Of a stretch of 41,149 bases of DNA, positions 23,805 through 38,937 are shown piece after piece. The DNA comes from a virus. The DNA lies in the UHGV virus genome UHGV-0455966; one strand, 5' to 3'. How positions within the stretch are numbered: the stretch's first letter is position 1; each line of letters starts with the position of its first letter. Under the pieces are notes generated by a model, which was given only the letters and a program-made list of their open reading frames with translations, did no database searches and was not told the DNA's origin. A program made the position numbers and the translations under genes.

Positions 23805-23805
23805 C

Positions 23806-26800
23806 CTATTTCATCTGCTCTTCAACTTTATTTAGTAACGGTGATATTGCCCACAGGTTCTGAAAAGGTAGCATTTTACGGACCGCGTGGGTTTGCTGGC
23901 TGTCAAATTCTCCGTTAAGTACACCATTCGCAACCGTCGCGGCATCACCGCCAAGATCAAAGGTAGGACCAAGTAAAGCACCAATAGCATTACGACTCTG
24001 AAACCTTGATACCGGAGGCGCACCAAACATCGCGCCAAGACCAAACCTACCGCCGCTTATGTTCTCAACGGTATTCAGCGGCTCAGAGAGCCAGCCAAGC
24101 ATTCCGCCCCGGTCGATCCCCTCTTTCACAAGGTTATTCCAGCTGTAGTCAATATCGCGACCGCTTAACTTCTGTTTCATCATATAGACCATTGAGCCAA
24201 GCGCAATCGTGCCAAGCGCACCAAGATAGAATGCAGCATCGCCCTGCTGGATACCAGATACCAGCACCCTGTTATGCTGTGCGAAGATAAACGTTTTGAA
24301 CTGCGTGATCATCTTCCAGCCTTCTTTACTAAAAAACAGCGGTGTATCACCTACGCCAGGCGTTACAATCACTGAGTCTACATCTTTCAGCACTGCAGAC
24401 TGGAAAATCTCTCTAGCGAAACGGTCATCCCACAGATGACTATGCCCGGTTAACAGCCCGTCCATATCCTCTCCGTGCTTCCCGAATTGCTCCCCGATTC
24501 GGCGCAGAACATCTTCATTGATGCCGACCTGTGCCATCTTCCGCATTTCACTTTTGGAGAGCGTGCCACCAGCAGAAACTTGGCGAGCCGCGTCAAGTAT
24601 CCTCGACTGCACTATCATCCCGGACCATGATTTAAGTGCGCTGTTCCACTGATTCATCAGCGTCCAGTTACCGAATTTCTGCGTCATCCAGTTCAGGCCT
24701 CGCTCAGCGGCGCTTCTCCGGCTATATGGGTCAGTAAGATCCGCTATAGCCTTTGTACGCGTAGACAGGACATAATCAAGCCCAACGGCCATTTCTCGCA
24801 AATCCCTGGTTGCAATTTTCACTGAGTCCATATTTTTAAGCATGCTTACCATTGGTCCGAGAGATTTTCTCAGGCCATGCTGCATCATCGGTCGCATCAG
24901 ATCAGTTGCAGCGGAGACAGTCATTCCACCAAGCAAACGGAGGAAGTTAATATTCCTAGCAACTCGCCCGGCACGAACAAAGAAACTGCGTGGATCTTGA
25001 GGTGCACCGTAAGTACCAAGCAGTCGATCACGCATAGCCGTAATATCCCTAATATCAGCCTCCCGTTGCTTCTCAAGAACTGCACGTCGTTTAGGCGTTT
25101 TAGCCTCTTTTATTAGCCGGGTATATTCCTCACTAACCTGACGGATTTGCTCCCCCATATCTTTACGGCCAAACTGCGCAGTCAGCTCAATTTCTGGTGC
25201 CACCTGCCGGAGATAACTTTCCATGATGTAGTTAACATCTGATTCAAGAAAATCTTCTATACGCTCATCAGGAATAAGCAGCGTTCTGCTTTTAGTGAAA
25301 CCAGCCCGACCAACGAGTCTCTCTGGGATAATATCGGCTGGTACAAGCCCGGAAGGTGCACCTATTATTTTATTCACGATCTCGTCAGCAGCGTCCTCTG
25401 CTTCCTCTCGGGATAGAGGCTCCATCTGCTTCAGTGCTCGTTCGCGGCTTGCATTCAGCCTTGTGGTTGAATTTGCCCGTTTTTGCAGTCGGCGAAGCTC
25501 AGAACGATATTTCCGTGGATTATCCAGCAACTCCATATGGCGCTGATAGACAGGAAGCTCACTCTTTGCCTGCGCTATATCATCAAGGCGTGTTTTAAGG
25601 TCAGAGCTTTCTTTCATCATTCTTGCCTGAAGTTTTTCTGATGAAGTCTCGGCCAACTCTTTTTCTATTCTTGTAAGACGCGCCTGTGTGTCAGTCTCCT
25701 GAGATATAAGCTTATTTCGTTTATCCAGTTCTTCCATGAGTAGAATTTTTTTACCAGACCATTTCTCCGCTTCAGCGATTTCACTAGCGAGAGCATCAGC
25801 GCGCGGTGCCGATTCCTCTGCAGTTTTTAGCAATGAATTTATCCTTTCAATTCGCTGACCTGCCTTGTCAGCACCTTTGGCACTAATCCCTTGTATCCAG
25901 TTGGCAATTCGCCCTCTGAATTCAGTGCGGTCGGAAAGTATCTTATCGAACTTATAAATGCGGGGAAGATAACTTTTCGCCGTCACGACATCGATATCCT
26001 CAGGAAGGATCCCCAGTTCCTGCATACGGGCTTTTGTGGTCTCGAAAATGGGGCGGATTCTGGCAGCTGCTTGTGAAACCTCAGGAATATCACTCTGATC
26101 ACCACGGCGCATAGCCATGCCAACAGCTTCATTGAAATCAATAAAGTTCATCCTCTTCACGCCGCGGGCGCTAACAGATTTGCTGTACTGCTGGTAAGCA
26201 TCACGAGTGGCTTCCATCTGCTTATAAAGCATGGCGTCGTATTGCTTAATCTTAGTCTCGACTGCCGTAAACGTAGCCAACCCCTCATCATTTTTGGCGA
26301 AGAAATAGTTATTTTCGGCAAGCTGCTGGTTAATCTGACGGGAGACAAGAGATGGTGATTGCGCCAAGCGGCCAGCAGGAGTGACACTCAACGTTTTGTT
26401 AGCAAGTCCAAGTCCAGCGAGCTGTTCCTGATCGAGTGTGGTATTGAAAACCTGAGCTGCACCAATGCTTTGAGGAGAATCCATACCTCGCAAATGATTA
26501 CCTACTGAGTTAACCACTGCCTCGCGCGCGCCAGGTCCAGCAAGTAGCTGTGCACCAGCACCAAGGATCCCACCAACGAGAGCATCAACAACAACGTTCG
26601 ATACGCTCTCCATCGGTGAGCGAGCTTCCTGAGTGGCCTGTAATGCGGCCTCTGAAGCAACACTGCCAGCAGCATTCGCCAGGGCAAAACGCCCGGCTGT
26701 TTCTGCAATACGACCGCCACGAACGACAGCGCCGAACGGAATAAACATAGAAATCGCATTGAATGGATCTGCTAATCTCATTGCTACAGAAGAGACTGTA

Positions 26801-27195
26801 CCAGCAAATCCCAAGCCTGAATTGTATTCCATGTCAGCTCTCTGCTGATCGATTCGATGTTTAATTGCCATTGTTTCTTCAGGCGAACCGGAGTTGATAA
26901 ACGAATCTGCAAAATCTTCATAGCCTTTAATATCTGCTGCATCGTTATCAAATGGGTTATATCCTTCAACCCTGTCAAACTGACTGAAAGGAGCACTGGC
27001 AATAAAGCTACCCAGCGTGTTATCTATACGAAATGCTGCTTGTCTAGACCTTTGAACGCGTTGATCACTGGTAAATGGGTTCACAGCAGAAAGCAAAGAA
27101 GGTGTTTCCATATAGAAATTACTGTCATCAGGTGCTGCTATTTGCTGAATATCCTCGCCAAGCAACTCTTTAGGATCCTGTTCATATATCGGCAT
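23806..27195 (-). CDS. large internal virion / ejection protein (T7 gp16-like position)
   Basis: 1129 aa, long coiled-coil regions, C-terminal hydrophobic segment; last large gene of virion module. Confidence 0.6.
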   Translation of the reverse strand: MPIYEQDPKELLGEDIQQIAAPDDSNFYMETPSLLSAVNPFTSDQRVQRSRQAAFRIDNTLGSFIASAPFSQFDRVEGYNPFDNDAADIKGYEDFADSFINSGSPEETMAIKHRIDQQRADMEYNSGLGFAGTVSSVAMRLADPFNAISMFIPFGAVVRGGRIAETAGRFALANAAGSVASEAALQATQEARSPMESVSNVVVDALVGGILGAGAQLLAGPGAREAVVNSVGNHLRGMDSPQSIGAAQVFNTTLDQEQLAGLGLANKTLSVTPAGRLAQSPSLVSRQINQQLAENNYFFAKNDEGLATFTAVETKIKQYDAMLYKQMEATRDAYQQYSKSVSARGVKRMNFIDFNEAVGMAMRRGDQSDIPEVSQAAARIRPIFETTKARMQELGILPEDIDVVTAKSYLPRIYKFDKILSDRTEFRGRIANWIQGISAKGADKAGQRIERINSLLKTAEESAPRADALASEIAEAEKWSGKKILLMEELDKRNKLISQETDTQARLTRIEKELAETSSEKLQARMMKESSDLKTRLDDIAQAKSELPVYQRHMELLDNPRKYRSELRRLQKRANSTTRLNASRERALKQMEPLSREEAEDAADEIVNKIIGAPSGLVPADIIPERLVGRAGFTKSRTLLIPDERIEDFLESDVNYIMESYLRQVAPEIELTAQFGRKDMGEQIRQVSEEYTRLIKEAKTPKRRAVLEKQREADIRDITAMRDRLLGTYGAPQDPRSFFVRAGRVARNINFLRLLGGMTVSAATDLMRPMMQHGLRKSLGPMVSMLKNMDSVKIATRDLREMAVGLDYVLSTRTKAIADLTDPYSRRSAAERGLNWMTQKFGNWTLMNQWNSALKSWSGMIVQSRILDAARQVSAGGTLSKSEMRKMAQVGINEDVLRRIGEQFGKHGEDMDGLLTGHSHLWDDRFAREIFQSAVLKDVDSVIVTPGVGDTPLFFSKEGWKMITQFKTFIFAQHNRVLVSGIQQGDAAFYLGALGTIALGSMVYMMKQKLSGRDIDYSWNNLVKEGIDRGGMLGWLSEPLNTVENISGGRFGLGAMFGAPPVSRFQSRNAIGALLGPTFDLGGDAATVANGVLNGEFDSQQTHAVRKMLPFQNLWAISPLLNKVEEQMK

Positions 27196-29942
27196 TATTT
27201 GCCCCCTGCGTATATATTGCTCGGAAGGTAATTGGCTGAACCATAACCGAATGGTTTGGTCAGATCTGGAGGAGTATATCCATCTTTATTGCTGAACTGC
27301 GGCAGCGGATTGCCTTCTCTCCGCACTCTAGCCTCATCAACACGTTGTTGCTGGAACTGAATGGTTTGCCTGTACATTGGAGATGTCAGCTGATCCGGCT
27401 TGAAACGAACAGGGAGACCATTTTCTCCAATATAATTTCTCGGTTCTATCGCTCCGTTTGCGTCAGGCTGTAAAACCATAACAGCATAACTCCTATCCCT
27501 TGCCGTAAGGCCATCAGAAACAAGTATTAAGTCCGTATCACTGCGAGGACCGCCAAAGGATTTTGATTTAAGCTCGCGTTTTTCCTGCTCCCACTGCCCC
27601 TGTATCCAGTTACCAGCACCATTATTTACTCCGTACAATGCCTCAGGTGCATACTTCATAACCTCTGCTTTGCCATTAACTGTAGAAACTCCCCAGGTGG
27701 TTCTGATCATGGCATTGGTCATTTTCTCAGCCTGTTCTGCATCGCCACCTGTCTGTACAAAGTTAGCATCGTAAATTGTCTGGTAATCTCGCTGATAGGC
27801 CGCATTTGATTTTCCTGGATCGGTAATATCCGGAGACCACGAACCAAAGGAAGTCAGACTGCTGGCGTTATTTTGTGCAGCAGTTGCCCTCGCCGCGACA
27901 TATTTTTTGTCTCGCATGGCAGTGGAAAGCATCTGTTTCATTCGGTCATCCTGTTGGAACACCTGGCTGTAAGCCATATCAACAGCCTTATCCTCCGGCA
28001 CGCCAGCGCGGGAATAATCGTAAACCTTGCCGTAAAATGCCATCGTACTTTTATCAAGTGTTGCCGCTGCCGCCGGATTATTATCGAATAACTGACCGTA
28101 GAATTTTGCCATCGGGACAACCAGCGCAGGATCTCTTGATGTTGCTCCACTGTTAAGCATTGTTTTAACCTGAGTTGGTATCATGCCGCTTTTAGTTGTG
28201 ACGGTGACCAGTGTATTGATGCTCTGCGGATCAGATATGGAAAACGAAGGCGCGATATCCTGCGCGAAATAACGGTCTACCGCTGCCTGATTGTTTTTGT
28301 CGTTCGGGTCCAGCGGGAAGTTATTTTGCATTGAAGACACGAACCTGTTTCTTCCCTGCTGAATCTCCCACTCCCTATCCATCTCTTTAAATTTGGCCTG
28401 CATTTTCTCCCAGCGTTGCTGGTTAGCTGCAAATCCAGGAGCGTTTGGATCCTGTGGACGTAAACGTTCAAGAATGTCTTGTCGTCCTTCTGGAGTGAGG
28501 TCTTTAGCGGCACCAATGACACCTCCATATTGTATCTGCGCCTGCATATCCTTCCACTTCATAGCGCCAATGCGCGGACCATTGGCCCGGATAAAATCGT
28601 CCTCAGAAGGTAACTTCTCAGGTTTCAATCCTTCATCAAGGGCTGAATATGCATCTTTAACTACGGTGCTAAGCTGGTCCGCATACTGCTGGCGGTACTG
28701 ATTTCTCAGCTCATTAGCCTGCCTCAATGCCTGTATTTGCATTTGAGGGCTCATAGCATCAAATGCCGCATTGCCCGTATAACGCTTAGGTGAATCAAGG
28801 TTAGTTAGACCAAGGGCTGCCGAGATACCAGTTTCAAGCTGTTCGGTGCTATAAGGCATACTGCCATTTTCGTGTTTAATAATCCCAGCACATAAAGCAG
28901 CTAGTGTCTTTGGGTTAGAGATATCAAGCTGATCATTCTCCCCAACACCAAGCTCACCACACAATGCCCTAATATAAGCATCAGTATTATTACCATCACT
29001 AGCCGGAGCATAGCGATTAACAATCTCGCTAACGGTGTCATAGCCTTGACGCTGGTAAGACAACATATTTTTACCCAACGCGCGGATTCCATGCTCAGGG
29101 GTAGCAAACGTTGCAAAACGTCCATCGCTACCGATCTGACCTTCCCACGGGTTAGATTTGCTCGCTTCAATATTACCAGGGTTATTATTACGTAAACCAC
29201 GAGCATCCAATGAATTACCATGTGATATTGCACGACTCACACCATCAAGATCCCCTGGCTCTCCATTAACCTGAAGAAACTCGTTGTATTTTTGAGCGAT
29301 ATTTCCTATCCATGCTTGCTGCCCCATTTGTTCCTTGAGCTGAGTTTTCTGCTGAACACGCCACTCATCAGGAAGCCCATGCGCATCAGCGTATTGATCA
29401 ATAGATTCAAATCGCTGCTTGGCTAAATCGACAAATGCTTGGTTATCGCTATATAGCCCCGCAGACTGAGTGACAGCCAATGCATTTCCTGACAAATACG
29501 TTTGATCTTGGAATTGCTGAAACTGCCCAACTTCATATCGACGTGCCTGATTGTAATAAGACTGCATAGACTGCTGGAGTTGAAAGGATAATTTATTCCT
29601 TTCCTCACTTTCAGGAATTGAGCCTAATAATGCCTGAGCCCTTTCCTGCATATTTTTCATAACAGCGTCACTCTGACCAAGAGCGTTTTTACCCTGTTTA
29701 GAAATCAGCCCACTTTCAGGGTTGTTAATCTGGTCATCTGCAAATTGGTTAAATTGCAGTAACGCCTCCTGGGCCATAGCAACATTCGCTTTCTGCCTGG
29801 CTTCACCATATGCCACCGCATACTGATCTGCGACATTCGCCAGCACCTGACCTGCTTGAGGAACATCGAAGATCTGAAAACCACCGGTTTGCACACCACG
29901 ACTTTGCACCTGGCGTCCGGATGTAGTAGGAACAACAGGCAT
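27195..29942 (-). CDS. internal virion protein with putative peptidoglycan-hydrolase domain (T7 gp15/16-like position)
   Basis: 915 aa; segment RGLRNNNPGNIEASKSNPWEGQIGSDGRFATFATPEHGIRALGKNMLSY resembles virion-associated muralytic domains by eye. Confidence 0.55.
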   Translation of the reverse strand: MPVVPTTSGRQVQSRGVQTGGFQIFDVPQAGQVLANVADQYAVAYGEARQKANVAMAQEALLQFNQFADDQINNPESGLISKQGKNALGQSDAVMKNMQERAQALLGSIPESEERNKLSFQLQQSMQSYYNQARRYEVGQFQQFQDQTYLSGNALAVTQSAGLYSDNQAFVDLAKQRFESIDQYADAHGLPDEWRVQQKTQLKEQMGQQAWIGNIAQKYNEFLQVNGEPGDLDGVSRAISHGNSLDARGLRNNNPGNIEASKSNPWEGQIGSDGRFATFATPEHGIRALGKNMLSYQRQGYDTVSEIVNRYAPASDGNNTDAYIRALCGELGVGENDQLDISNPKTLAALCAGIIKHENGSMPYSTEQLETGISAALGLTNLDSPKRYTGNAAFDAMSPQMQIQALRQANELRNQYRQQYADQLSTVVKDAYSALDEGLKPEKLPSEDDFIRANGPRIGAMKWKDMQAQIQYGGVIGAAKDLTPEGRQDILERLRPQDPNAPGFAANQQRWEKMQAKFKEMDREWEIQQGRNRFVSSMQNNFPLDPNDKNNQAAVDRYFAQDIAPSFSISDPQSINTLVTVTTKSGMIPTQVKTMLNSGATSRDPALVVPMAKFYGQLFDNNPAAAATLDKSTMAFYGKVYDYSRAGVPEDKAVDMAYSQVFQQDDRMKQMLSTAMRDKKYVAARATAAQNNASSLTSFGSWSPDITDPGKSNAAYQRDYQTIYDANFVQTGGDAEQAEKMTNAMIRTTWGVSTVNGKAEVMKYAPEALYGVNNGAGNWIQGQWEQEKRELKSKSFGGPRSDTDLILVSDGLTARDRSYAVMVLQPDANGAIEPRNYIGENGLPVRFKPDQLTSPMYRQTIQFQQQRVDEARVRREGNPLPQFSNKDGYTPPDLTKPFGYGSANYLPSNIYAGGK

Positions 29943-30517
29943 CAGTAACCTCCTATTTTGAATCGGGAGTCAGAATTCATAAAACCTGAGTTAGATAACA
30001 TTGGCGTCCCACCACTAGATGTACTTCCTTTAGAGAACGGACTCCACGTCCCACCAAACATCTGGTACGCACCGTATGCCTTCAGAGGCGCAGTGAGTAA
30101 AGTTGTTGCTGCTCCCACATTCCCCTGTTTACGGGCTGAACTGGCTTCTGCTTTATAGTTGGCAGCCTGAACCTGATAACCGTAAGCCTCGCGTTGCGCG
30201 TTATTCACCGTCGTCAGAGAATCAAGAGCGCCAAACTGGGCAGTGTCGCCAAATATATCCAGCGCGTTACCTGTAGATAAATCAGCGCCGGTAGCCCCCA
30301 TTGTCGCCGCCTGTGTACCAAGCCGCTGTCGGGTCTCTCTGCGCCGTTGCTCAGCTTCAGCGTTACCTCTGTTTATTGCATCATTTGCCTGAGCTGTGGC
30401 TATATCTGCGTTCGCTTCTGCAACCTTCGAGGCATACTTTCCCTGTTGGTACTGGGTGTATGCCTGAATGCCACTCATGGCGAGCATTGCGCCACCAGCA
30501 ATAACCGGATCGCACAT
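29942..30517 (-). CDS. internal virion protein (T7 gp14-like position)
   Basis: 191 aa Ala/Gly/Gln-rich protein between the gp13-like gene and the large internal proteins. Confidence 0.5.
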   Translation of the reverse strand: MCDPVIAGGAMLAMSGIQAYTQYQQGKYASKVAEANADIATAQANDAINRGNAEAEQRRRETRQRLGTQAATMGATGADLSTGNALDIFGDTAQFGALDSLTTVNNAQREAYGYQVQAANYKAEASSARKQGNVGAATTLLTAPLKAYGAYQMFGGTWSPFSKGSTSSGGTPMLSNSGFMNSDSRFKIGGY

Positions 30518-30981
30518 TATTTTCTCTCCATGTGAAATCTGTGGAAATTAAGACCAAGAGCACCATAAGGCGCGGCTTCTTCAAGCCTGAATCCAAGCCA
30601 GTGCAGCCATGCTTTGGCAACATGGTTTCGCTCGTCGACGTAGTTTTCCAGGCGCGGATAAACTGCCAGCATCTGCTGCAATACAGGGCGGCAGTGGCGC
30701 AGAAATGTCTTCTGATATTTTTCAATACGGCTGGTTCCTACCAGCCAGGGCGTACCATTGCCACCGATCATTGACGCCGGAGATACGCCAAACATGGTTA
30801 CCAGTTCTCCGTTCGCAAATCCTGACCAGGCCATAGTCGCAGTGCGAAGACCAACACGCAGCGCATCTTCGGTAGTCATCAGCGATACCGCATACAGTTC
30901 GTCAATATCAGCCTGACGAACATCCGGCAAAATCATCTGAAGATGCTCTTCGGTGGCGGGAATAATTTGAACATCGATCAT
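30517..30981 (-). CDS. virion assembly/internal protein (T7 gp13-like position)
   Basis: 154 aa; ATGA-coupled to tail tubular B gene. Confidence 0.45.
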   Translation of the reverse strand: MIDVQIIPATEEHLQMILPDVRQADIDELYAVSLMTTEDALRVGLRTATMAWSGFANGELVTMFGVSPASMIGGNGTPWLVGTSRIEKYQKTFLRHCRPVLQQMLAVYPRLENYVDERNHVAKAWLHWLGFRLEEAAPYGALGLNFHRFHMERK

Positions 30982-33452: not shown

Positions 33453-34060
33453 CAGGACAACCTCGCAATGGTAAACTCATCAACCGGTGGCTGTGGTTCC
33501 TGTGATTCATTCTGGCTATGCGAGCCAGCACTAAGAATCACGCGATTGTACATATTGAGGGCAAACGTACCGAGGTCTGCATTCCCAGTCAGCGCCATGT
33601 TAATAGCTGCCGCAAGACGCCAGGCCAACGCCTCCATAAAAATGGCATCAAACATGTTCACATCTGTAACGCGAGAGACATACTTGAGCCATGCCTGAGG
33701 CTGGTCTGTGTAGATCAACTTTCCTGTTCCGTTGGTGTCTGCACCAACTTCGTACTGAACGCGCATTGCTGCTGTTGGATTGCGTACACCAGGAAGCATA
33801 ATTTCAGTAATGCGCAGACAATCTGACGGGTACTGGTACGCATATTCCCAGTCAGGCGGTGGATTGCTCGTATCTGCAAGCGCCACGCGTTTGGTAGCAA
33901 AGTTCCAGTCAAAATCAGAAAGAACAGCATCACGGCAGGCCTCAAAGTGCAGCGAACATTCACCCGCTTCCTTGCTGGCTTCCGTCAGGCTGTTAATACT
34001 GCGGCTGTTGCCAATATTGGACAGCGCACGATTACAGATCTCTACTACAGAGGCCATCAC
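33452..34060 (-). CDS. tail tubular protein A (T7 gp11-like)
   Basis: 202 aa; N-terminal ...VVEICNRALSNIGNSRSINSL... resembles T7 gp11 ...LSAVNDILASIGEPPVSTL... Confidence 0.6.
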   Translation of the reverse strand: MMASVVEICNRALSNIGNSRSINSLTEASKEAGECSLHFEACRDAVLSDFDWNFATKRVALADTSNPPPDWEYAYQYPSDCLRITEIMLPGVRNPTAAMRVQYEVGADTNGTGKLIYTDQPQAWLKYVSRVTDVNMFDAIFMEALAWRLAAAINMALTGNADLGTFALNMYNRVILSAGSHSQNESQEPQPPVDEFTIARLS

Positions 34061-34386
34061 TCACCTCCGTTACCGTACAGAGTTTCAGCCGCTGATTTTT
34101 CTACATCCCTGGAAACAGGAGCGATCGCCATATCAGTGATCTGCAGATCGGCGCTGCGATTAACACCATCGTCAGTTTCTCTGGCAGACAGGCCTCGAAT
34201 AACAGCCTTTGCAGTTATCATCACTTCTGTTCCGACGCCCTGAGGTTGCGCCTTCAGCTTATTCAATGTGTCGTTATTAAGAGTGATGCACAGCCCCCAC
34301 GGGTATTCATCGCGAGTTCTGGTTTCTCCGCTCTCATCCTGGTAGCTGTCAGTGCCGGTTTTGAGGTTTACGAGTTCCATATACAC
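34057..34386 (-). CDS. hypothetical virion-module protein
   Basis: 109-aa ORF between capsid and tubular A genes. Confidence 0.45.
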   Translation of the reverse strand: MYMELVNLKTGTDSYQDESGETRTRDEYPWGLCITLNNDTLNKLKAQPQGVGTEVMITAKAVIRGLSARETDDGVNRSADLQITDMAIAPVSRDVEKSAAETLYGNGGE

Positions 34387-34430: not shown

Positions 34431-34775
34431 TTACACGCCCAGTTCTTTACGCTTATCTGCGATCTTCTCGCGGAGCGTTTCGGCTTTAGCGTTATGGTGT
34501 GGCTTCTCGTTAAAGAGCAATTCGTACTCTTCACGGAGCTTATCCAGTTCACCATCATCTGACACATCGTTGATGATTTTGGTGCTGGTTGCTGCCATAG
34601 ACACCTTTCCTGCTACCTTTGCTTTTGCCTGTCTGGCTGCATCGTTAACAGGTTCCAGTGCGCTACCAGGCTCACCTTCGTATTCGATTTCTGCCCCCTC
34701 CGGCCACAGTGTGTTATGGATATGAGAGAGGCGCAGAACGCGGTATCTTGGTTTCTCACCTGACATCGATATCAC
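34431..34775 (-). CDS. hypothetical virion-module protein
   Basis: 114-aa ORF, charged/helical. Confidence 0.45.
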   Translation of the reverse strand: MISMSGEKPRYRVLRLSHIHNTLWPEGAEIEYEGEPGSALEPVNDAARQAKAKVAGKVSMAATSTKIINDVSDDGELDKLREEYELLFNEKPHHNAKAETLREKIADKRKELGV

Positions 34776-34776
34776 C

Positions 34777-35214
34777 TTAACCAGTTACTTTTGAGCGGAT
34801 CGGGTACGGCGTATTGGCATCAACATCCAGACTGATACCCGCAGTGAATTTGCCGGCCGTTAGTGGGCCAGTTGCGACGGAGTAGTTAACACGCAGATAT
34901 CGCTGAACACCGGCTGGCACCTTTGCAGAAACAACTCGCTTACCTGCTGTCAGGGTGGCCTTTGCCAACGCACCACTATCATAAATAGTGGTCCAAGAGC
35001 TGTTATTCTCACTCGTCTGCAACTGGATGTTTACAGTTGCCTCACCACTTGCCGTGGCGGCTTCGTTAACCAGCCCCCAAAACTCAAGCGGGTAACCCAC
35101 ACCGATATCGCGACGGTTTCCATCAATTGGACCGAGATCGATTACGTCAGTAGAAGCCGCGGTATCAGTTACCGCCTGTGCTTCGGAGAACATCAACAGT
35201 TTGTCGGTGATCAT
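34777..35214 (-). CDS. hypothetical virion protein (decoration or adaptor candidate)
   Basis: 145-aa ORF immediately after capsid gene. Confidence 0.45.
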   Translation of the reverse strand: MITDKLLMFSEAQAVTDTAASTDVIDLGPIDGNRRDIGVGYPLEFWGLVNEAATASGEATVNIQLQTSENNSSWTTIYDSGALAKATLTAGKRVVSAKVPAGVQRYLRVNYSVATGPLTAGKFTAGISLDVDANTPYPIRSKVTG

Positions 35215-35265: not shown

Positions 35266-36258
35266 TTACACCACGCGGGCTTCTGTTTCCAGAAGCGCAT
35301 CAGTTTCACGGATTGGTACACCACGGAATGACGTCCACCACTCGCCTTCAGTCTCTTTTACGCTAATCGCCAGAGATGTTTTCTCCAGAGACTGCAGATC
35401 AAGAGCCTGGCCTACAGTGCGGTTCATGTAGAACACCGGGCGACCCATGCCACGGTTTGGAATGCGATGCAGTGCTTTAACCATCAACTTCGCAATATTT
35501 GCGGCAGAGGAAGGTTCTGAAAGATTGCTGACATCGATGTTTGCAATGCGAACAACATAACGCCAGTCACGCAGAGCAAGTCCGTTATCCCATTTGTAAT
35601 GGGTGCGATAGCCTTCGTACTTGCCGCCATTAGCATCTTCCAGTGTCACCTGGCCTTTATCTTCCATCTGGATGCCAGCCTTCTGCCCTTTCGGGAAGAT
35701 GCCATGCACGGTGTTTTCGCCCCACACTACTAACCAGATTGAGGTGTTATCTGTACCCGTGCCACCAGCATCAATGATGTTCTGAGCATTACCCGCAGAC
35801 AGGCTGGAATAGCGGGAGGACAGTCCCATAAACTGCTGAGGGTTAACGCTGGAATCACCATAAAACAGTGTCTGCGCCATCTGCTGATTCATCGCTTCAA
35901 TAAATGCGCGGTCTTCAGACAGGCGGAATTCGGCGGTATTACCGTTCAGATCAGCCAGTGACTTATCGACTTCAGCATAGGTTTCCAGCATTCCAACGGA
36001 ATCGGTGACCTGCACTGTGGTTGATTTGCTTGGCTGTACGCCATAGTTCAGCAAACGCCAGGTGGCTGAAGGTAAACCAGAACGAATGGTGGTTCGGTGT
36101 CCGGTAGGAAGGTTCCCTTCGACAAAAGGCATATCCTGAAGGATCGGGTTAGTTTGACCGAGAAGCTCGATAATCTTATCGACTTTCCCGTTTGGATCGA
36201 CGCGCTTACCCCAGTCAGCCAGCGTTAGCGCAGTTAAGCCTTTAACAGCCATTGTCAT
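35266..36258 (-). CDS. major capsid protein
   Basis: 330 aa, follows scaffold gene, strong codon bias; T7 gp10-like size and position. Confidence 0.7.
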   Translation of the reverse strand: MTMAVKGLTALTLADWGKRVDPNGKVDKIIELLGQTNPILQDMPFVEGNLPTGHRTTIRSGLPSATWRLLNYGVQPSKSTTVQVTDSVGMLETYAEVDKSLADLNGNTAEFRLSEDRAFIEAMNQQMAQTLFYGDSSVNPQQFMGLSSRYSSLSAGNAQNIIDAGGTGTDNTSIWLVVWGENTVHGIFPKGQKAGIQMEDKGQVTLEDANGGKYEGYRTHYKWDNGLALRDWRYVVRIANIDVSNLSEPSSAANIAKLMVKALHRIPNRGMGRPVFYMNRTVGQALDLQSLEKTSLAISVKETEGEWWTSFRGVPIRETDALLETEARVV

Positions 36259-36266
36259 TTCCTCTC

Positions 36267-36968
36267 TTATTTGCCATAGAGCACTTCGGCCGCACTACGC
36301 TGGCCTTCATTACCACCGGTGACCATGCCATCTTCAGACATCGCCTTTCCGATTTTCACGAACGTTTTGACCAGATCAGGGTGATTACCCAGTCCGGTGG
36401 TGTTCAGATATTCTTTGAGTTCAGGTGTCCCGAACTGGTCAAGCGCACGCTGTGCGGCGCTAAGGTTAGAAATCAACTTGTCGCCACCGATTTCTTTGTC
36501 AGCTTTTACATCAGCAGCCCACTGCTCGGTTGTTTTCTGCCAGGCTTCTGCCTGGCGCTGCTGCACACCTGCCAGAATCTTCGGATAAGCATCAACCAGC
36601 TTTTGCGCTTGCTCGTTGGTCAGGTTAAGTTCTCGCGCCACCGGCTCGAACTCCTTCAACGCTTCTGTATCCAGCTCTACGCCTTCGGCAGCCTGAAACT
36701 CGTACTTCTCAGGCGCACCCTCTGGTTTATCGCCGTCCTTTTTTTCATCCTGCTTATCGTTTTCAGGCTTTTTGTCATCAGCAGGTTTATCGCCATCAGC
36801 AACAGGTTGTGGCTTATCACCTTCCTGTTGTGATGGATCACCAACTGGAGCAGGGTTATCACCTGCAGGCGCTAACGGTTCTGACGCAGCCGGAGCTGCT
36901 CCACCATCGACTGGTTGCTCATTGCAAAGACGGCGATACAGCAAACGCTCAAATAAATTCATGATCAC
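36267..36968 (-). CDS. capsid scaffolding protein
   Basis: Highly acidic, Pro/Asp/Lys-rich, helical protein between portal and capsid genes. Confidence 0.6.
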   Translation of the reverse strand: MIMNLFERLLYRRLCNEQPVDGGAAPAASEPLAPAGDNPAPVGDPSQQEGDKPQPVADGDKPADDKKPENDKQDEKKDGDKPEGAPEKYEFQAAEGVELDTEALKEFEPVARELNLTNEQAQKLVDAYPKILAGVQQRQAEAWQKTTEQWAADVKADKEIGGDKLISNLSAAQRALDQFGTPELKEYLNTTGLGNHPDLVKTFVKIGKAMSEDGMVTGGNEGQRSAAEVLYGK

Positions 36969-37261
36969 TCCTGTTCACTGGCCTCTTTGGCCATCTTCAA
37001 ATACTGTTCAGGGCAATGCGCCATAACGCGCTGAAACAGTTCCAGCGCCAGATTGCGTTGCCCCTCATTAAATGCCATTGCCATAGCGTCCATCGGTGAG
37101 ATAGCGGAAAACACCCGGCCTTTCTCCAGCACAGACCAGACAACGCGACGCCCCTGTTCACTGCTCATGACAAAGCGAATGTCATCAATTTCACGCTGTG
37201 CCATGTCACGTTGCTTACTGGCGTTTTCTTCTTTCAGTTGATCATCTTCGTAATCTGTCAT
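36965..37261 (-). CDS. hypothetical small protein
   Basis: 98-aa ORF coupled between portal and scaffold genes. Confidence 0.4.
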   Translation of the reverse strand: MTDYEDDQLKEENASKQRDMAQREIDDIRFVMSSEQGRRVVWSVLEKGRVFSAISPMDAMAMAFNEGQRNLALELFQRVMAHCPEQYLKMAKEASEQE

Positions 37262-38937
37262 TGTGATTGCCCACCCTGACCACTAACTGCATTCGCCATA
37301 GCTGACAAAACACTCGGATCCGAAGTTTTAGCTTCGCTTAGCGTCTTGGCACCCTGTGCCGCCGCCATCCCCATCGCCATCATTTGTTGCTGCTGTTGTT
37401 GCTGTGCCCGTTGCTGGCGAGCCTGCTCAACCTGTTCCTGCGGAACAATGACGGTTGGAGACACTCCGGACATATCAGCGAATGCATCGATCGCCTGATC
37501 AACGTTGAGTTTGTCGAGAGCTTCTGGTTTCGCTTGCGCAAGTTGACCAATGAAGTTAACCGTGGACGCCAGACTGGACAGGCCGATAGACTTCTGCGCC
37601 TGAGCCATGACAGAAATGTATTCGACCTTCAGGGGCATACCTTCCATCGCGTCAGGCGGTGGCGGCAGCATGTTTTTACGCACCATCATCGAGAAAGCGC
37701 GGTCAATGAGAGGATTAAGACATTCGTCGTTCAGACGCTCCAGAACCGGCCCCAACATCAGAAGTTTTTCTTCTTTCATTTCGATCACCGCTTCAACAGG
37801 CATCGAGCGGGTATTGATGTTCTGCAACATCATGAACAGATCGACAAAGTAGGCGCTGTTAATGATTTGGCGGGTGTCCTGAATGTCTGCTACCAGATCT
37901 GCTGTACTGGGGTTAACCAGATAAGCAGGCCTGAAACCATCCTGACCAGTAATCTGATCGATATACGTGATGTCGCCAGGAAGAAGGGAGGCGCGCTGAT
38001 TCTTGAGGGAAGTCGGAGCAACCATCGGCGGATTGGTGGCTTTATCAATCAACTGCGACTTGCGCTTCTGGAGAAGCTGCAATGCCTTAACAGGTCCAAG
38101 CGCCAGCATACCCGGGCATGATGATCCATAAACATCTTCGCCGTTAACTTCCCAGCGCGGAGCCATAATTGGAAACTCATCGAATCCGGACTCACGCAAC
38201 AACTTGTCGTTATCGCCACCAACCTCGTAATAAACCGATTTGAATGGCTTGTTCTTGCTATCCAGCTTCGATGTATCGCGGTCAATGTTCGGGTAAACCG
38301 AATGCATCACTTCAATCCACTTCTCGTAGGTGCCGCTTTCCCACATGCTTTTTACGGATTCGCTGACGTTATTTAGCCCGAACTCCCGAACAAGCTGACG
38401 AACAGTCATAGAGAACTTGCGAAAACAGGTGTCCACACTGCCACGAGGTGAGTTAGCCAGGTAGTAACTGCCTATCGGGAATGGCATTGTGCGAATGATG
38501 TCCTCGTCATCCTCCAGCACCGCCATTGCACCAGTGCTGTATGTGCCGAGGCTTCCGTATAACTGCGGAAGAGACTGGTAGAGATTCGACTTATTGAACA
38601 TATCGTTCATGCGGTTCTGCACCGCCTCAAGCCACAACTTAACAGGGCCATAATCCATCATTTCAGGATCTGGCGTAGCCAGGCGAAACCACGGACGCGC
38701 GGGGCTTGTGATGCCTGACATCATGCCGCTGGCGAGAGTGCGCGCCGCCATAGTCCCGGTCGAATCAATAATGCGTGTATTGCGTCGATCGTTACGGTTG
38801 ACCTCAGAAGTAAGAAAGCGGGAACCACGCGGGTTGATGTAATCACTCAACTCGCGCCAGTGCGGCTCGAACGACTGACGCTCGCTTTCAAGTTGTGCGA
38901 ACTGTTTGTTCAATCGCTCTTTAGTTGTTTCCGCCAT
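37258..38937 (-). CDS. portal protein (T7 gp8-like head-tail connector)
   Basis: 559 aa; Gln/Ala/Met-rich C-terminal tail QQRAQQQQQQQMMAMGMAAAQGAK like T7 gp8 C-terminus; first large gene after terL. Confidence 0.7.
   Translation of the reverse strand: MAETTKERLNKQFAQLESERQSFEPHWRELSDYINPRGSRFLTSEVNRNDRRNTRIIDSTGTMAARTLASGMMSGITSPARPWFRLATPDPEMMDYGPVKLWLEAVQNRMNDMFNKSNLYQSLPQLYGSLGTYSTGAMAVLEDDEDIIRTMPFPIGSYYLANSPRGSVDTCFRKFSMTVRQLVREFGLNNVSESVKSMWESGTYEKWIEVMHSVYPNIDRDTSKLDSKNKPFKSVYYEVGGDNDKLLRESGFDEFPIMAPRWEVNGEDVYGSSCPGMLALGPVKALQLLQKRKSQLIDKATNPPMVAPTSLKNQRASLLPGDITYIDQITGQDGFRPAYLVNPSTADLVADIQDTRQIINSAYFVDLFMMLQNINTRSMPVEAVIEMKEEKLLMLGPVLERLNDECLNPLIDRAFSMMVRKNMLPPPPDAMEGMPLKVEYISVMAQAQKSIGLSSLASTVNFIGQLAQAKPEALDKLNVDQAIDAFADMSGVSPTVIVPQEQVEQARQQRAQQQQQQQMMAMGMAAAQGAKTLSEAKTSDPSVLSAMANAVSGQGGQSQ

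What the first reader, a model, noticed from the sequence alone, without database searches (positions are those of the whole stretch)
23806..38937. T7-like podovirus virion module inside a temperate, lambdoid-regulated genome
Gene order portal, scaffold, capsid, tail tubular A and B, internal virion proteins, tail fibre, with by-eye resemblance of the portal C-terminus, gp11/gp12 N-termini and gp17 N-terminus to T7. This is combined with integrase, repressor, O/P-type replication and no phage RNA polymerase gene. Three extra small genes lie between capsid and tubular A (34057-35214).
Basis: partly seen in the sequence, partly recalled or inferred. Interest (0 to 1): 0.45.

Follow-up and report, generated by a model that had tools for sequence, protein, structure and literature searches.

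The report
Epsilon15/phiV10-type temperate podovirus virion genes
This is the ordinary virion gene block of a well-known group of temperate E. coli/Salmonella phages (epsilon15/phiV10 type), whose portal, short tail and DNA-ejection proteins are distant, already documented relatives of phage T7's, joined to a different (BPP-1-type) capsid.

Summary
The window is one complete, circularly permuted genome of an epsilon15/phiV10-like (Uetakevirus-type) temperate podovirus. The flagged block is 98% identical to Escherichia phage EC.W1-9, and the 22953-30036 stretch I searched is 100% identical to the E. coli GPEC1186 chromosome. The gene order is real: portal, Bbp19-like, scaffold-like, capsid, three small genes, adaptor (tubular A), nozzle (tubular B), four internal virion proteins.

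T7 kinship is real but deep. Direct BLASTP against T7 finds nothing. Profile and fold methods link seven parts: portal-gp8, adaptor-gp11 (fold only), nozzle-gp12, gp13, gp14, gp16 and the fibre N-terminal domain.

Capsid, cement and scaffold-like genes are not of the T7 family; they are BPP-1/epsilon15 type. The terminase large subunit fits no T7 terminase family either. The last ORF in the range is a gp16-like ejection protein, not a fibre. The true tailspike lies at 16407-18596, outside the range.

Integrase, repressor, lambda-P and absence of an RNA polymerase gene are confirmed. The initiator is DnaT/HTH type, not lambda O. All of this is published (Hardies 2016; Carin-1, LME-1 and PhiXacm4-11 cryo-EM).

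One unplanned lead: the scaffold-like protein and the so-called capsid staple protein share a co-varying C-terminal peptide.

The parts
37258..38937 (-). Portal protein (559 aa), T7 gp8 family
   Evidence: Pfam PF12236, 622.6 bits. Reciprocal PHROG cross-hits with T7 gp8. hhalign against T7 gp8: 98% probability, E=1.2e-14 over residues 11-508. PDB 8CK0 Carin-1 portal, E=3.7e-177.
36965..37261 (-). Bbp19-family small protein (98 aa); function unknown; no T7 counterpart
   Evidence: Pfam PF25181, 62.8 bits. Conserved after the portal gene in epsilon15, BPP-1-like, Carin-1 and other relatives.
36267..36968 (-). Scaffold-like protein (233 aa), annotated 'protease/peptidase' in databases. It has an acidic, Pro-rich N-terminal half, a helical-looking C-terminal half and a conserved C-terminal ..AAEVLYGK tail.
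   Evidence: phrog_458 'protease', but no Pfam or NCBIfam protease family. In 85 family members there is no conserved Ser/Cys nucleophile and no HExxH; Tyr231 is conserved in 92%. No similarity to T7 gp9. Scaffold function is inferred from position, composition and the full-length mature capsid protein in PDB 3J40/3J4U.
35266..36258 (-). Major capsid protein (330 aa), epsilon15 gp7 / BPP-1 Bbp17 family (HK97 fold, BPP topology)
   Evidence: Pfam PF20911, 497 bits. PDB 3J4U BPP-1 MCP E=7e-127, 8CJZ E=2.3e-86, 3J40 epsilon15 gp7 E=5e-84. No link to T7 gp10.
34777..35214 (-). Bbp16-family capsid cement protein (145 aa); first of the three 'extra' genes
   Evidence: Pfam PF21190, 160.8 bits. PDB 3J4U_H BPP-1 cementing protein E=2e-26; 8CJZ_B capsid decoration protein E=2.3e-21. 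PGAP name 'Bbp16 family capsid cement protein'.
34431..34775 (-). Small conserved ORF (114 aa; epsilon15 gp9 homologue); function unknown
   Evidence: phrog_590 only. No Pfam or NCBIfam hit. Homologues in 26 of 80 related prophage loci.
34057..34386 (-). Epsilon15 gp10-family protein (109 aa; PGAP 'capsid staple protein'). The name is doubtful. It ends in ..SAAETLYGNGGE, which mirrors the scaffold-like tail.
   Evidence: Pfam PF21628, 174 bits. PDB 3J40_N by sequence, E=2.5e-20. The AF2 model (pLDDT 80.6) matches no solved fold. PMC9207676 reports the epsilon15 staple density fits the 130-aa protein, not gp10.
33452..34060 (-). Head-to-tail adaptor (202 aa) = tail tubular protein A; T7 gp11 fold
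   Evidence: PDB 8CK1_E Carin-1 connector: E=4.9e-25 by sequence, 1.2e-39 by profile. AF2 model pLDDT 88.7. Foldseek: 8CK1_E E=3e-16, TM 0.84; T7 gp11 (7BOX, 7EY7, 6R21) E=5e-6 to 9e-5, TM 0.52-0.59; P22 gp4 only E=0.48, TM 0.32. No sequence-level link to gp11.
30981..33452 (-). Tail nozzle (823 aa) = tail tubular protein B; T7 gp12 homologue
   Evidence: PDB 8CK1_A Carin-1 tail nozzle, E=5.6e-217. hhalign against T7 gp12: 80% probability, E=1.4e-5, residues 321-439 against 350-466. This lies inside the central domain that Hardies et al. aligned (PMC4819975).
30517..30981 (-). Internal virion protein A (154 aa); T7 gp13 homologue
   Evidence: Same PHROG (phrog_308) as T7 gp13. hhalign: 97% probability, E=9.7e-11.
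29942..30517 (-). Internal virion protein B (191 aa); T7 gp14 family core/ejection protein
   Evidence: Pfam PF24072 T7_gp14, 33.7 bits against a cut-off of 27. hhalign against gp14: 46% probability, E=2e-4. PGAP name 'virion core protein, T7 gp14 family'.
27195..29942 (-). Large internal virion protein (915 aa) in the gp15 (IVP-C) position, carrying a muralytic domain at about residues 247-399
   Evidence: phrog_1044, full length. PDB 9VVP_L Gp29 N-terminal domain E=2.9e-34 and endolysin 7Q47 E=1.1e-14. 44% identical to phiV10 p18 and epsilon15 gp15 over the first ~500 aa only. No detectable similarity to T7 gp15.
23806..27195 (-). Internal virion protein D (1129 aa); T7 gp16 family without the N-terminal transglycosylase domain. 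It is NOT a tail fibre.
   Evidence: phrog_342, 778.9 bits, residues 21-1129 on profile positions 192-1227. T7 gp16 hits the same profile at 1354.7 bits on positions 4-1227. Epsilon15 gp17 and phiV10 p20 are in a different PHROG, phrog_684. hhalign against gp17: 0%.
22953..23804 (-). Last gene of the late operon: low-GC ORF (283 aa) with a signal-peptide-like N-terminus; function unknown
   Evidence: phrog_6118 only. No Pfam, NCBIfam or PDB match. GC 0.37-0.39. A terminator-like hairpin follows immediately at 22946-22929 on the minus strand. It travels with the two-gene IVP cassette in 13-14 IMG/VR relatives.
16407..18596 (-). N-terminal ~1-200 is the particle-binding domain of the T7 gp17-N type; the C-terminal part is an exchangeable receptor-binding module.
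   Evidence: phrog_5662, full length. The N-terminus shares phrog_1640/27277/2710/8460 with the T7 gp17 N-terminus. hhalign against gp17: 66% probability, E=5.4e-5, residues 12-161 against 11-155. PDB Carin-1 Dpo31/tail fibre in 8CK1, E=3.2e-32 for residues 1-202. 99.3% identical to phage HEMP4; residues 185-729 are 89% identical to phages JEP4 and HZ41.

Best explanation
The block 23806-38937 is the late (virion) operon of an epsilon15/phiV10-type temperate podovirus. Two further genes belong to the same system: the 283-aa ORF that ends the operon, and the separately placed tailspike gene at 16407-18596.

How it is inferred to work:
- A dodecameric gp8-type portal nucleates a T=7 shell of BPP-1/epsilon15-type HK97-fold capsid protein. 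Assembly uses a non-T7 scaffold-like protein.
- The shell is clamped on the outside by Bbp16-family cement dimers.
- After DNA packaging by a Terminase_2 small subunit plus a large terminase, a gp11-fold adaptor ring and a gp12-type hexameric nozzle close the portal.
- Six trimeric tailspikes dock at the adaptor-nozzle junction through a gp17-N-type domain.
- The gp14-like protein, the 915-aa muralytic protein and the gp16-like protein are stored as an internal core. On infection they are ejected to digest peptidoglycan and build a trans-envelope channel.
- The gp13-like protein acts as an assembly factor.
- Transcription depends on the host RNA polymerase under phage regulators. Lysogeny uses a tyrosine integrase and a CI-type repressor.

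Shown here: gene content, order, family assignments and folds. Inferred from solved relatives (Carin-1, BPP-1, T7, LME-1): stoichiometries, the assembly pathway and the ejection mechanism.
For: Identity of the element:
- 98% coverage at 98.2% identity to phage EC.W1-9. phiV10 matches only the 30036-38937 part of the block, at 98.5% identity.
- 100% identity of the 22953-30036 stretch to the E. coli GPEC1186 chromosome, with matching PGAP gene names.
- The window ends meet inside the terminase large-subunit gene.
- Synteny with epsilon15 gp4-gp17, Carin-1, BPP-1-like phages and pelagiphage Skadi.

Family assignments:
- Pfam, PHROG and PDB results.

T7 links:
- A clean diagonal in an all-against-all hhalign matrix: portal-gp8 E=1.2e-14, nozzle-gp12 E=1.4e-5, IVP-A-gp13 E=9.7e-11, IVP-B-gp14 E=2e-4, spike-gp17 E=5.4e-5. 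Off-diagonal probabilities were mostly 0, and at most 4%.
- PHROGs shared with T7 gp13 and gp16.
- The adaptor AF2 model matches T7 gp11 structures at TM 0.52-0.59.

Temperate context and lysis genes.

No RNA polymerase.

Literature: PMC4819975, PMC12407071, the PhiXacm4-11 preprint, PMC3863775.
Against: - No virion protein of this exact phage has been examined; all mechanistic steps are by homology.
- The adaptor-gp11 link rests on a predicted structure only.
- The nozzle-gp12 and gp14 links are modest (80% and 46% hhalign probability).
- The gp15 equivalence is positional only.
- The scaffold role of the 233-aa protein is inferred, and public annotation calls it a peptidase.
- The roles of the 98-, 114-, 109- and 283-aa products are unknown.
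- One-way identity-weighted similarity to phiV10 is 61%. If that stands in for ICTV's 70% genus line (recalled from memory, not tested here), formal genus placement is not settled.
Confidence: 0.9

Rival explanations
1. One reading: a virion module of T7-family (Autographiviridae) origin was recently captured by a lambdoid temperate phage, giving an unusual chimera.
For: The gene order matches T7 genes 8-17. The portal hits the T7 gp8 Pfam family and the 191-aa protein hits T7_gp14. The 1129-aa protein is in T7 gp16's PHROG, whereas epsilon15 and phiV10 use another PHROG.
Against: - There is no nucleotide similarity to T7 (0%) and no significant pairwise protein match.
- Six of nine T7 structural Pfam families, plus the T7 terminase family, are not met.
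- Capsid, cement and scaffold-like genes are of another lineage.
- The same complete arrangement is conserved across epsilon15, BPP-1, Carin-1, pelagiphages and prophage loci in 280 genomes of a one-genome-per-species collection. The association with temperate genomes is therefore old and common, not a recent capture.
Confidence: 0.04
2. The module is P22-like (a Lederbergvirus-type short tail with gp4/gp10/gp26 and gp7/gp20/gp16 ejection proteins). This is the refutation the reader proposed.
For: The phage is a temperate enterobacterial podovirus with a tailspike. Hardies et al. place P22 in the same very broad tail homology group.
Against: No P22-family Pfam or PHROG hit for any virion protein. 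The adaptor model matches T7 gp11-type adaptors at E~1e-5 and TM 0.52-0.59, but P22 gp4 only at E=0.48 and TM 0.32. The portal is PF12236, the T7 gp8 type.
Confidence: 0.01
3. The block is a decayed prophage remnant or a domesticated particle-making cluster (GTA- or tailocin-like), not a working phage module.
For: Near-identical copies lie in many E. coli chromosomes: 119 of 5426 complete genomes carry the IVP cassette.
Against: All ORFs are intact and tightly packed. The window is a complete genome with terminase, lysis, integrase, repressor and replication genes. Relatives EC.W1-9, HEMP4, phiV10 and ZX5 are deposited as phage genome records, EC.W1-9 with sewage water as its source.
Confidence: 0.03

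Closest known systems
Escherichia phages EC.W1-9, phiV10, HEMP4, vB_EcoP_ZX5 and Salmonella phage epsilon15 (genus Uetakevirus and unclassified relatives)
   Same: Same genome plan, gene by gene. EC.W1-9 is 98.2% identical over 98% of the block. phiV10 is 98.5% identical from the portal to IVP-B. The tailspike is 99.3% identical to HEMP4. One-way identity-weighted similarity of the window (sum of aligned identity over window length): EC.W1-9 79%, phiV10 61%, epsilon15 32%.
   Different: - Against phiV10 and epsilon15, the IVP-C/D region is a two-gene cassette (915 + 1129 aa; phrog_1044 + phrog_342) instead of three genes (phrog_992 + 1145 + 684).
- Against epsilon15, the capsid/cement/gp9/gp10 genes are only 36-44% identical, while portal, adaptor and nozzle are 81-88% identical.
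- The tailspike receptor-binding part and the accessory genes differ from EC.W1-9 and phiV10.
Cobetia phage Carin-1 (PDB 8CJZ/8CK0/8CK1), Bordetella phage BPP-1 (3J4U), Legionella element LME-1 (9EFK), Xanthomonas phage PhiXacm4-11
   Same: These are solved structures of homologues.
- Carin-1: portal E=3.7e-177, nozzle E=5.6e-217, connector E=4.9e-25, tailspike N-domain E=3.2e-32, capsid and cement.
- BPP-1: capsid E=7e-127, cement E=2e-26.
- LME-1: nozzle and adaptor.
 The gene order is the same. LME-1 and PhiXacm4-11 are described by their authors as T7-like in tail architecture.
   Different: Protein identity is 33-63%. The Carin-1 and PhiXacm4-11 records carry extra head-spike or split-nozzle features. 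Hosts and accessory genes differ.
Escherichia phage T7 (Autographiviridae), genes 8-17
   Same: Same order of functions. Homology is detectable for gp8, gp12, gp13, gp14, gp16 and the gp17 N-terminal domain, and the gp11 fold is shared.
   Different: - No RNA polymerase and no T7-type replication genes.
- Temperate lifestyle.
- Capsid of another sequence family with cement proteins; an unrelated scaffold-like protein; a terminase large subunit that fits no T7 terminase family.
- The muralytic domain sits in the gp15-position protein rather than at the N-terminus of gp16.
- A tailspike rather than a fibre.
- Extra small genes.
- No pairwise sequence similarity.

Membership tests
Epsilon15/phiV10 group (genus Uetakevirus) | Collinear gene order matching epsilon15 gp1-gp20 (terminase, portal, gp5, gp6, MCP, gp8-10, gp11, gp12, gp13, gp14, large core proteins, tailspike, lysis, integrase) | tested here: met
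   ORF map against the annotated phiV10 and epsilon15 records.
Epsilon15/phiV10 group (genus Uetakevirus) | At least 70% nucleotide similarity over the whole genome to a member species (ICTV genus guideline, recalled from my own knowledge) | tested here: inconclusive
   One-way identity-weighted similarity is 61% to phiV10 and 32% to epsilon15, but 79% to unclassified EC.W1-9. The 32% value is window against epsilon15; I did not compare the type species with each other.
Epsilon15/phiV10 group (genus Uetakevirus) | Temperate: tyrosine integrase plus CI-type repressor | tested here: met
   PF00589, PF13356 and PF22022 on 12554-13804; HTH_3 on 7918-8502.
Autographiviridae (T7-like phages proper) | Phage-encoded single-subunit RNA polymerase | tested here: not met
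   No unassigned ORF longer than 500 aa. T7 gp1 tblastn against the window: best E=0.67.
Autographiviridae (T7-like phages proper) | T7-family capsid, scaffold, tubular A/B, gp13 and fibre N-domain recognisable at Pfam curated thresholds (PF21703, PF05396, PF17212, PF25675, PF11090, PF03906) | tested here: not met
   None of these families is hit at E<=0.01 by window proteins. All are hit by T7 itself. Only PF12236 (portal) and PF24072 (gp14) are met.
Autographiviridae (T7-like phages proper) | T7-type terminase large subunit (PF22530) | tested here: not met
   The window TerL, reconstructed across the window ends, has no Pfam hit and no PDB sequence hit.
T7-type podoviral tail/ejectosome homology group (Hardies et al. 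2016 'transient tail' group) | gp8-type portal | tested here: met
   PF12236, 622.6 bits; hhalign E=1.2e-14.
T7-type podoviral tail/ejectosome homology group (Hardies et al. 2016 'transient tail' group) | gp11-type adaptor (tubular A) | tested here: met
   Fold level only. The AF2 model matches 7BOX, 7EY7 and 6R21 at E=5e-6 to 9e-5 and TM 0.52-0.59. Sequence profiles do not reach gp11.
T7-type podoviral tail/ejectosome homology group (Hardies et al. 2016 'transient tail' group) | gp12-type nozzle (tubular B) | tested here: met
   hhalign 80% probability, E=1.4e-5, in the central domain. The close homologue 8CK1_A is the solved Carin-1 nozzle. The fold of the window protein itself was not modelled.
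T7-type podoviral tail/ejectosome homology group (Hardies et al. 2016 'transient tail' group) | Internal virion proteins A, B and D (gp13, gp14, gp16) in syntenic order after the nozzle | tested here: met
   phrog_308 is shared with gp13. PF24072 T7_gp14 scores 33.7 bits. phrog_342 is shared with gp16.
T7-type podoviral tail/ejectosome homology group (Hardies et al. 2016 'transient tail' group) | Internal virion protein C (gp15) homologue | tested here: inconclusive
   The 915-aa protein is in the right position and of the right size, but shows no detectable similarity to gp15. Hardies et al. also failed to confirm IVP-C in this group.
T7-type podoviral tail/ejectosome homology group (Hardies et al. 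2016 'transient tail' group) | Fibre or spike with a gp17-type N-terminal tail-attachment domain | tested here: met
   Met by ORF 16407-18596, outside the stated range: shared PHROGs, hhalign E=5.4e-5, 8CK1 tail fibre E=3.2e-32.
P22-like podoviruses | P22-type portal, gp4 adaptor, gp10 and gp26 tail proteins | tested here: not met
   No such family hits. P22 gp4 matches the adaptor model only at E=0.48, TM 0.32.
BPP-1/epsilon15-type capsid (HK97 fold in BPP topology plus Bbp16 cement) | Capsid protein of family PF20911 followed by a Bbp16-family cement gene | tested here: met
   PF20911, 497 bits; PF21190, 160.8 bits; 3J4U chains A and H at E=7e-127 and 2e-26.
Lambdoid replication module | Lambda O-family initiator plus lambda P-family helicase loader | tested here: inconclusive
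   The P family is met (PF06992, 191 bits). The initiator carries DnaT and HTH_36 domains and does not hit a lambda-O family.

The most novel reading that the evidence does not exclude
The scaffold-like protein (36267-36968) and the epsilon15-gp10-family protein (34057-34386) carry the same short C-terminal peptide, ..[SA]-A-[AD/E]-x-[LM]-[YF]-[GP].., and it co-varies from phage to phage.

The epsilon15 outer 'staple' density now appears to belong to the Bbp16-like protein rather than to gp10 (PMC9207676). The least conventional reading not excluded is therefore this: the tail is a docking peptide for one site on the capsid protein (or portal), and gp10-family proteins are recruited into procapsids through the scaffold-binding site. 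They would then act either as an internal cargo-like virion protein or as a competitor that helps release the scaffold.

That would be a targeting mechanism I did not find described for this widespread phage lineage, and it would make the database name 'capsid staple protein' wrong.
Probability: 0.25. Interest if true: 0.45.

Novelty: already known. Interest (0 to 1): 0.15.

Why it matters
For the finding as given, very little is new. It re-identifies a well-sequenced group of serotype-specific temperate coliphages, and a T7 relationship that is already published.

Its practical value is in correcting annotations:
- The last ORF of the block is a gp16-type ejection protein, not a fibre.
- The 'peptidase' label on the scaffold-like gene has no support.
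- The 'capsid staple' label on the gp10-family gene conflicts with the published 2022 re-assignment of the epsilon15 density and with its predicted fold.

The shared C-terminal peptide offers a cheap, testable handle on how scaffold and gp10-family proteins engage the BPP-1/epsilon15-type capsid. Relatives of this capsid gene occur in prophage loci of 280 genomes of a one-genome-per-species collection.

Tried and rejected
- Direct BLASTP/tblastn of every virion ORF against the T7 proteome. No significant cognate hit, so the 'by-eye' resemblance cannot be confirmed this way.
- Pfam scan for T7 families. Only two of nine are met.
- Profile search of PDB sequences with a 58-sequence adaptor alignment. 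It reached Carin-1 and LME-1 but not T7 gp11, so fold comparison was needed.
- First hhalign run timed out and was rerun in pieces.
- The search for related loci with the nozzle in IMG/VR returned only relatives of at least 99% identity. These were useless for profile diversity but useful for cassette counts.
- The search for related loci with the gp10-family alignment failed because no conserved stretch was available. It was replaced by a capsid-alignment scan.
- The terminase large subunit and the 283-aa ORF had no informative PDB or family match.
- NCBIfam scan of ten virion proteins gave no family.
- The Carin-1 paper (PMC10134823) and the epsilon15 PNAS paper (PMC3725109) are not held in the library.

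Rejected readings: a P22-like module, a recent T7 capture, and a defective remnant (see the rival explanations).

Full report
**What the window is**

A megablast of 23806-38937 against annotated phage records finds Escherichia phage EC.W1-9 at 98% coverage and 98.2% identity. phiV10, O157 typing phages 9 and 10, PAS61, ZX5 and HEMP4 match at 98-98.5% identity over the portal-to-IVP-B part. Enterobacter phage Tyrion, Salmonella PAT1 and epsilon15 match at 75-82%.

Local BLAST shows that window positions 1-1768 and 40807-41149 abut in phiV10 (positions 1768/1769). The two window ends therefore meet inside the terminase large-subunit gene. That gene reads through as a single 489-aa frame when the ends are joined.

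The window is thus one complete, circularly permuted genome of the epsilon15/phiV10 type, read in the reverse orientation of the reference records. One-way identity-weighted similarity of the window is 79% to EC.W1-9, 61% to phiV10, 32% to epsilon15 and 0% to T7.

The sub-region 22953-30036 occurs at 80% coverage or more in 119 of 5426 complete E. coli genomes. It is 100% identical in strain GPEC1186, whose chromosome carries the same gene order over the 29 kb I fetched around it.

**Checking the observation**

Their assignments are:

| ORF | Assignment and evidence |
|---|---|
| Portal, 37258-38937 | PF12236, 622.6 bits |
| 98 aa | Bbp19 family |
| 233 aa | phrog_458 'protease', no Pfam family |
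| Capsid | PF20911, 497 bits |
| 145 aa | PF21190 Bbp16 |
| 114 aa | phrog_590, unknown |
| 109 aa | PF21628, epsilon15 gp10-like |
| 202 aa | phrog_394 tail protein |
| 823 aa | phrog_376 tail protein |
| 154 aa | phrog_308 internal virion protein |
| 191 aa | PF24072 T7_gp14, 33.7 bits against a cut-off of 27 |
| 915 aa | phrog_1044, with a muralytic domain |
| 1129 aa | phrog_342 'internal virion protein with endolysin domain' |

Solved structures of relatives exist:
- Carin-1 portal 8CK0, E=3.7e-177
- Carin-1 nozzle 8CK1_A, E=5.6e-217
- Carin-1 connector 8CK1_E, E=4.9e-25
- BPP-1 capsid 3J4U, E=7e-127, and BPP-1 cement, E=2e-26
- epsilon15 gp7 (3J40), E=5e-84

A holin/endolysin/Rz cassette is also there. 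The replication initiator (6351-7166) carries DnaT and HTH_36 domains, not a lambda-O domain.

No RNA polymerase is present. Every ORF above 500 aa is assigned, and T7 gp1 finds nothing by tblastn (best E=0.67).

There is no fibre gene in the stated range. The terminal 1129-aa ORF scores 778.9 bits on phrog_342, covering profile positions 192-1227. T7 gp16 scores 1354.7 bits on the same profile, covering positions 4-1227. The window protein is therefore a gp16-family ejection protein that lacks gp16's N-terminal transglycosylase domain (SLT).

The muralytic domain sits instead in the 915-aa protein at about residues 247-399. It matches 9VVP Gp29 at E=2.9e-34 and endolysin 7Q47 at E=1.1e-14.

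The real tailspike is the 729-aa ORF at 16407-18596. A roughly 4.4-kb low-GC accessory region separates it from the late operon. Evidence for the tailspike:
- Its N-terminal ~160-200 residues share PHROGs with the T7 gp17 N-terminus (phrog_1640, 27277, 2710, 8460).
- It aligns to gp17 residues 11-155 by hhalign (E=5.4e-5).
- It matches the Carin-1 spike seen in the 8CK1 tail complex (E=3.2e-32).

**How T7-like is it?**

Pairwise BLASTP of all fourteen virion proteins against the T7 proteome gives no significant cognate hit.

I built family alignments from epsilon15, phiV10, eight diverse phages (Carin-1, a BPP-1-like phage, pelagiphage Skadi-1, and Pseudomonas, Xanthomonas, Vibrio, Caulobacter and Acinetobacter phages) and 80 prophage loci from different bacterial species. 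I compared these with alignments of T7 relatives in an all-against-all hhalign matrix.

The matrix is clean. Only cognate pairs score, and off-diagonal probabilities were mostly 0 and at most 4%:

| Pair | Probability | E-value | Region |
|---|---|---|---|
| portal-gp8 | 98% | 1.2e-14 | |
| nozzle-gp12 | 80% | 1.4e-5 | 321-439 against 350-466 |
| 154 aa-gp13 | 97% | 9.7e-11 | |
| 191 aa-gp14 | 46% | 2e-4 | |
| spike-gp17 | 66% | 5.4e-5 | |

The nozzle-gp12 region lies inside the central domain reported by Hardies et al.

The adaptor shows nothing at sequence level, even with a 58-sequence profile against PDB. Its AlphaFold2 model (pLDDT 88.7) does match T7 gp11 in 7BOX, 7EY7 and 6R21 at E=5e-6 to 9e-5 and TM 0.52-0.59. 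It also matches other gp11-type adaptors (KP32, P-SCSP1u, PhiM1, Kp7). P22 gp4 reaches only E=0.48 and TM 0.32.

No link was found for the scaffold-like protein against gp9, the capsid against gp10, or the 915-aa protein against gp15.

At Pfam's curated thresholds, only the gp8 and gp14 families are met. Tube, Phage_nozzle, Gp10A-like, Phage_T7_Capsid, Phage_T7_Gp13, Phage_T7_tail and the T7 terminase domain are not met, although T7 itself hits all of them.

The conclusion is that portal, tail and ejectosome share deep ancestry and order with T7. The head shell, cement and scaffold do not belong to T7's sequence families, and neither does the terminase large subunit. The phage is not a member of the T7 family.

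**This is already known**

- Hardies et al. 2016 (PMC4819975) defined exactly this homology for the epsilon15 group: tubular tail A and B, and IVP-A, -B and -D (epsilon15 gp17). They could not confirm IVP-C. They also noted that epsilon15's terminase and capsid trace to other lineages.
- The epsilon15 RefSeq record carries HHpred notes to T7 tubular protein A and to BPP-1 Bbp16.
- The authors of the LME-1 (PMC12407071) and PhiXacm4-11 cryo-EM studies call these tails T7-like. The LME-1 paper also calls Carin-1 'another T7-like virus'.
- PGAP already names most of the genes in E. coli chromosomes.

The lineage is very common. There are 485 nozzle loci in IMG/VR, the best 80 at 99% identity or more. 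The nozzle family occurs in 221 phage records. Capsid relatives occur in 280 loci of a collection holding one genome per species.

**The three 'extra' small genes**

They are conserved lineage genes (epsilon15 gp8, gp9 and gp10; phiV10 p11-p13).

- The 145-aa product is the Bbp16-family cement protein, solved on BPP-1 and Carin-1 capsids.
- The 114-aa ORF has no assignable function.
- The 109-aa product belongs to the epsilon15 gp10 family, which PGAP calls 'capsid staple protein'.

**The 233-aa 'protease'**

No protease family in Pfam or NCBIfam matches it. In an 85-member alignment (23-83% identity) there is no conserved Ser or Cys nucleophile and no HExxH motif. The N-terminal 90 residues are Pro/Asp/Ala/Glu/Lys-rich.

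The capsid protein's solved relatives are modelled essentially full length, so there is no sign of a cleaved pro-domain. The protein is not, however, homologous to T7 gp9.

**An unplanned observation**

The scaffold-like and gp10-family proteins end in the same short peptide, and it co-varies:

| Phage or locus | Scaffold-like tail | gp10-family tail |
|---|---|---|
| Window | RSAAEVLYGK | KSAAETLYGNGGE |
| epsilon15 | ..ISAFYPKK | ..KDAFYPDGEDD |
| BPP-1-like | ..ARRLYAASNMNP | ..AQRLYGASSMSA |
| Proteus/Providencia prophages | ..SAADVLFG | ..[ST][TA]ADVLFDGGE |
| A Thiobacillus MAG | DARSLYPNSNLK | DARSLYPNSTLL |

Over 30 genomes, the mean BLOSUM62 local score of the two tails is 29.6 within a genome and 22.9 between genomes. 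Tails of four control proteins score about 10-12. None of 20000 permutations reached the observed value. Relatedness among genomes inflates this test, so it is not a true probability.

A loose motif, [LMIF][YF][GPADK] in the last 14 residues, is present in 69 of 76 scaffold-like proteins and 25 of 25 gp10-like proteins, against 77 of 2742 other ORFs. In the gp10 family, A98, L101, Y102 and G103 are at least 90% conserved. Where a gp10-family gene exists, it is the best tail match to the scaffold in its locus. Scaffold-like proteins keep the motif even in genomes without a gp10-family gene.

The simplest reading is a shared docking peptide for one partner site. Which partner, and on which face of the shell, is unknown. 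I found no mention of this in the papers searched, but the search was limited.

**Mosaicism**

- Within the operon, capsid, cement, gp9 and gp10 are 43, 36, 39 and 44% identical to epsilon15, while portal, scaffold-like, adaptor and nozzle are 81, 75, 85 and 88% identical. The capsid is 63% identical to a BPP-1-like phage.
- The IVP-C/D region (about 23806-30036) is a two-gene cassette, against three genes in phiV10 and epsilon15. Its IVP-D is in T7 gp16's PHROG, whereas theirs is in phrog_684.
- Among 61 IMG/VR relatives with enough flanking DNA, 14 carry the two-gene cassette, 36 the three-gene cassette and 11 neither.
- The 283-aa low-GC ORF travels with the two-gene cassette. A terminator-like hairpin follows it at 22946-22929.

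**Verdict**

The object is a known kind of phage with near-identical sequenced relatives. Interest is low for the finding itself. The C-terminal peptide is a modest lead worth a bench test.

Noticed in passing
window 36267-36300 (C-terminus of the 233-aa ORF) and 34057-34101 (C-terminus of the 109-aa ORF), minus strand; also L004, L105, L108, L110 and 25 GTDB loci (L112-L159 range): The scaffold-like protein and the epsilon15-gp10-family protein end in the same short peptide (..SAAE[VT]LYG..), and it co-varies between phages. Mean tail score is 29.6 within a genome, 22.9 between genomes and about 10-12 for control proteins. The motif occurs in 69/76 and 25/25 family members against 77/2742 other ORFs. 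This suggests a shared docking site. I found no description of it in the literature searched.
   Followed up: partly
window 34057-34386 (-): The database name 'capsid staple protein' for this family is doubtful. Its AF2 model (pLDDT 80.6) matches no PDB fold, not even epsilon15 3J40. PMC9207676 reports that the epsilon15 staple density fits the 130-aa protein instead; its 130-aa length equals that of epsilon15 gp8, the Bbp16 homologue, and this identification is my inference. In BPP-1-like genomes the homologue sits next to the portal gene, not after the capsid genes.
   Followed up: partly
window 36267-36968 (-): The 'protease/endoprotease/peptidase' annotation carried by this gene family in GenBank, PHROGs and PGAP has no support. 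There is no protease family hit, and 85 homologues show no conserved Ser/Cys nucleophile or metal motif.
   Followed up: yes
window 34057-36258 compared with 30981-34060 and 36267-38937: A capsid-cassette mosaic lies inside the epsilon15/phiV10 group. Capsid, cement, gp9 and gp10 are only 36-44% identical to epsilon15, while the flanking portal, scaffold-like, adaptor and nozzle genes are 75-88% identical. The capsid is closer (63%) to a BPP-1-like Bordetella phage.
   Followed up: partly
window 23806-30036 (-): The ejection-protein cassette has been swapped. The window has two genes (915 + 1129 aa; phrog_1044 + phrog_342, the latter being T7 gp16's PHROG). phiV10 and epsilon15 have three genes (phrog_992/1145/684). 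The window's version is about 82% identical at DNA level to Klebsiella phage records. It is present in 14 of 61 IMG/VR relatives and in 119 of 5426 complete E. coli genomes, including IHE3034 and APEC O18.
   Followed up: partly
window 22953-23804 (-), terminator-like hairpin 22929-22946 (-): A 283-aa, low-GC (about 0.37-0.39) ORF with a signal-peptide-like N-terminus is the last gene before a strong terminator-like hairpin at the end of the late operon. It has no family or structure match beyond phrog_6118. It is a possible moron or lysogenic-conversion gene.
   Followed up: partly
window 16407-18596 (-): The tailspike is modular. Residues 1-203 are about 94-96% identical to other phiV10-like phages. 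Residues 185-729 are 89% identical to the spikes of Escherichia phages JEP4 and HZ41 (about 39 kb) and of the 130-kb phage 92CQ. The full length is 99.3% identical to phage HEMP4. None of 80 near-identical IMG/VR relatives carries this spike within the stretch fetched (up to 10 kb either side of the nozzle).
   Followed up: partly
window 39586-39662 (+), hairpin 39706-39741 (+): A tRNA-Arg (anticodon TCT) gene, followed by a strong terminator-like hairpin, lies between the portal and terminase genes on the opposite strand. PGAP annotates it in the GPEC1186 copy too.
   Followed up: no
window 18600-22950: A low-GC accessory island sits between the tailspike and the late operon. It holds a Bro-N protein (20435-21130 +), three unassigned plus-strand ORFs, and a minus-strand pair that PGAP annotates as a YafO-family type II toxin (19074-19580) plus a partner (19570-20013). 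Pfam gave no hit for the pair.
   Followed up: no
window 40737-41149 joined to 1-1057 (-): The terminase large-subunit gene is split by the window ends, so the window is a circular permutation of a whole genome. The 489-aa product has no Pfam family and no PDB sequence match.
   Followed up: yes
L192 (E. coli GPEC1186 chromosome), locus 602-2644: In this chromosome the integrase and Rz genes are adjacent, as in the free phage map, and the query matched two places in the record. This could mean a tandem double lysogen, or an attachment site elsewhere than between int and Rz.
   Followed up: no
L176 14051-14944 (+): In one Rhodospirillales genome, a 297-aa ORF 7.7 kb downstream of the scaffold-like gene ends in nearly the same tail (RRARRFYDRTYRR against RARRLYDNTYKD, score 46). 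A third protein family may use the same C-terminal peptide there.
   Followed up: no
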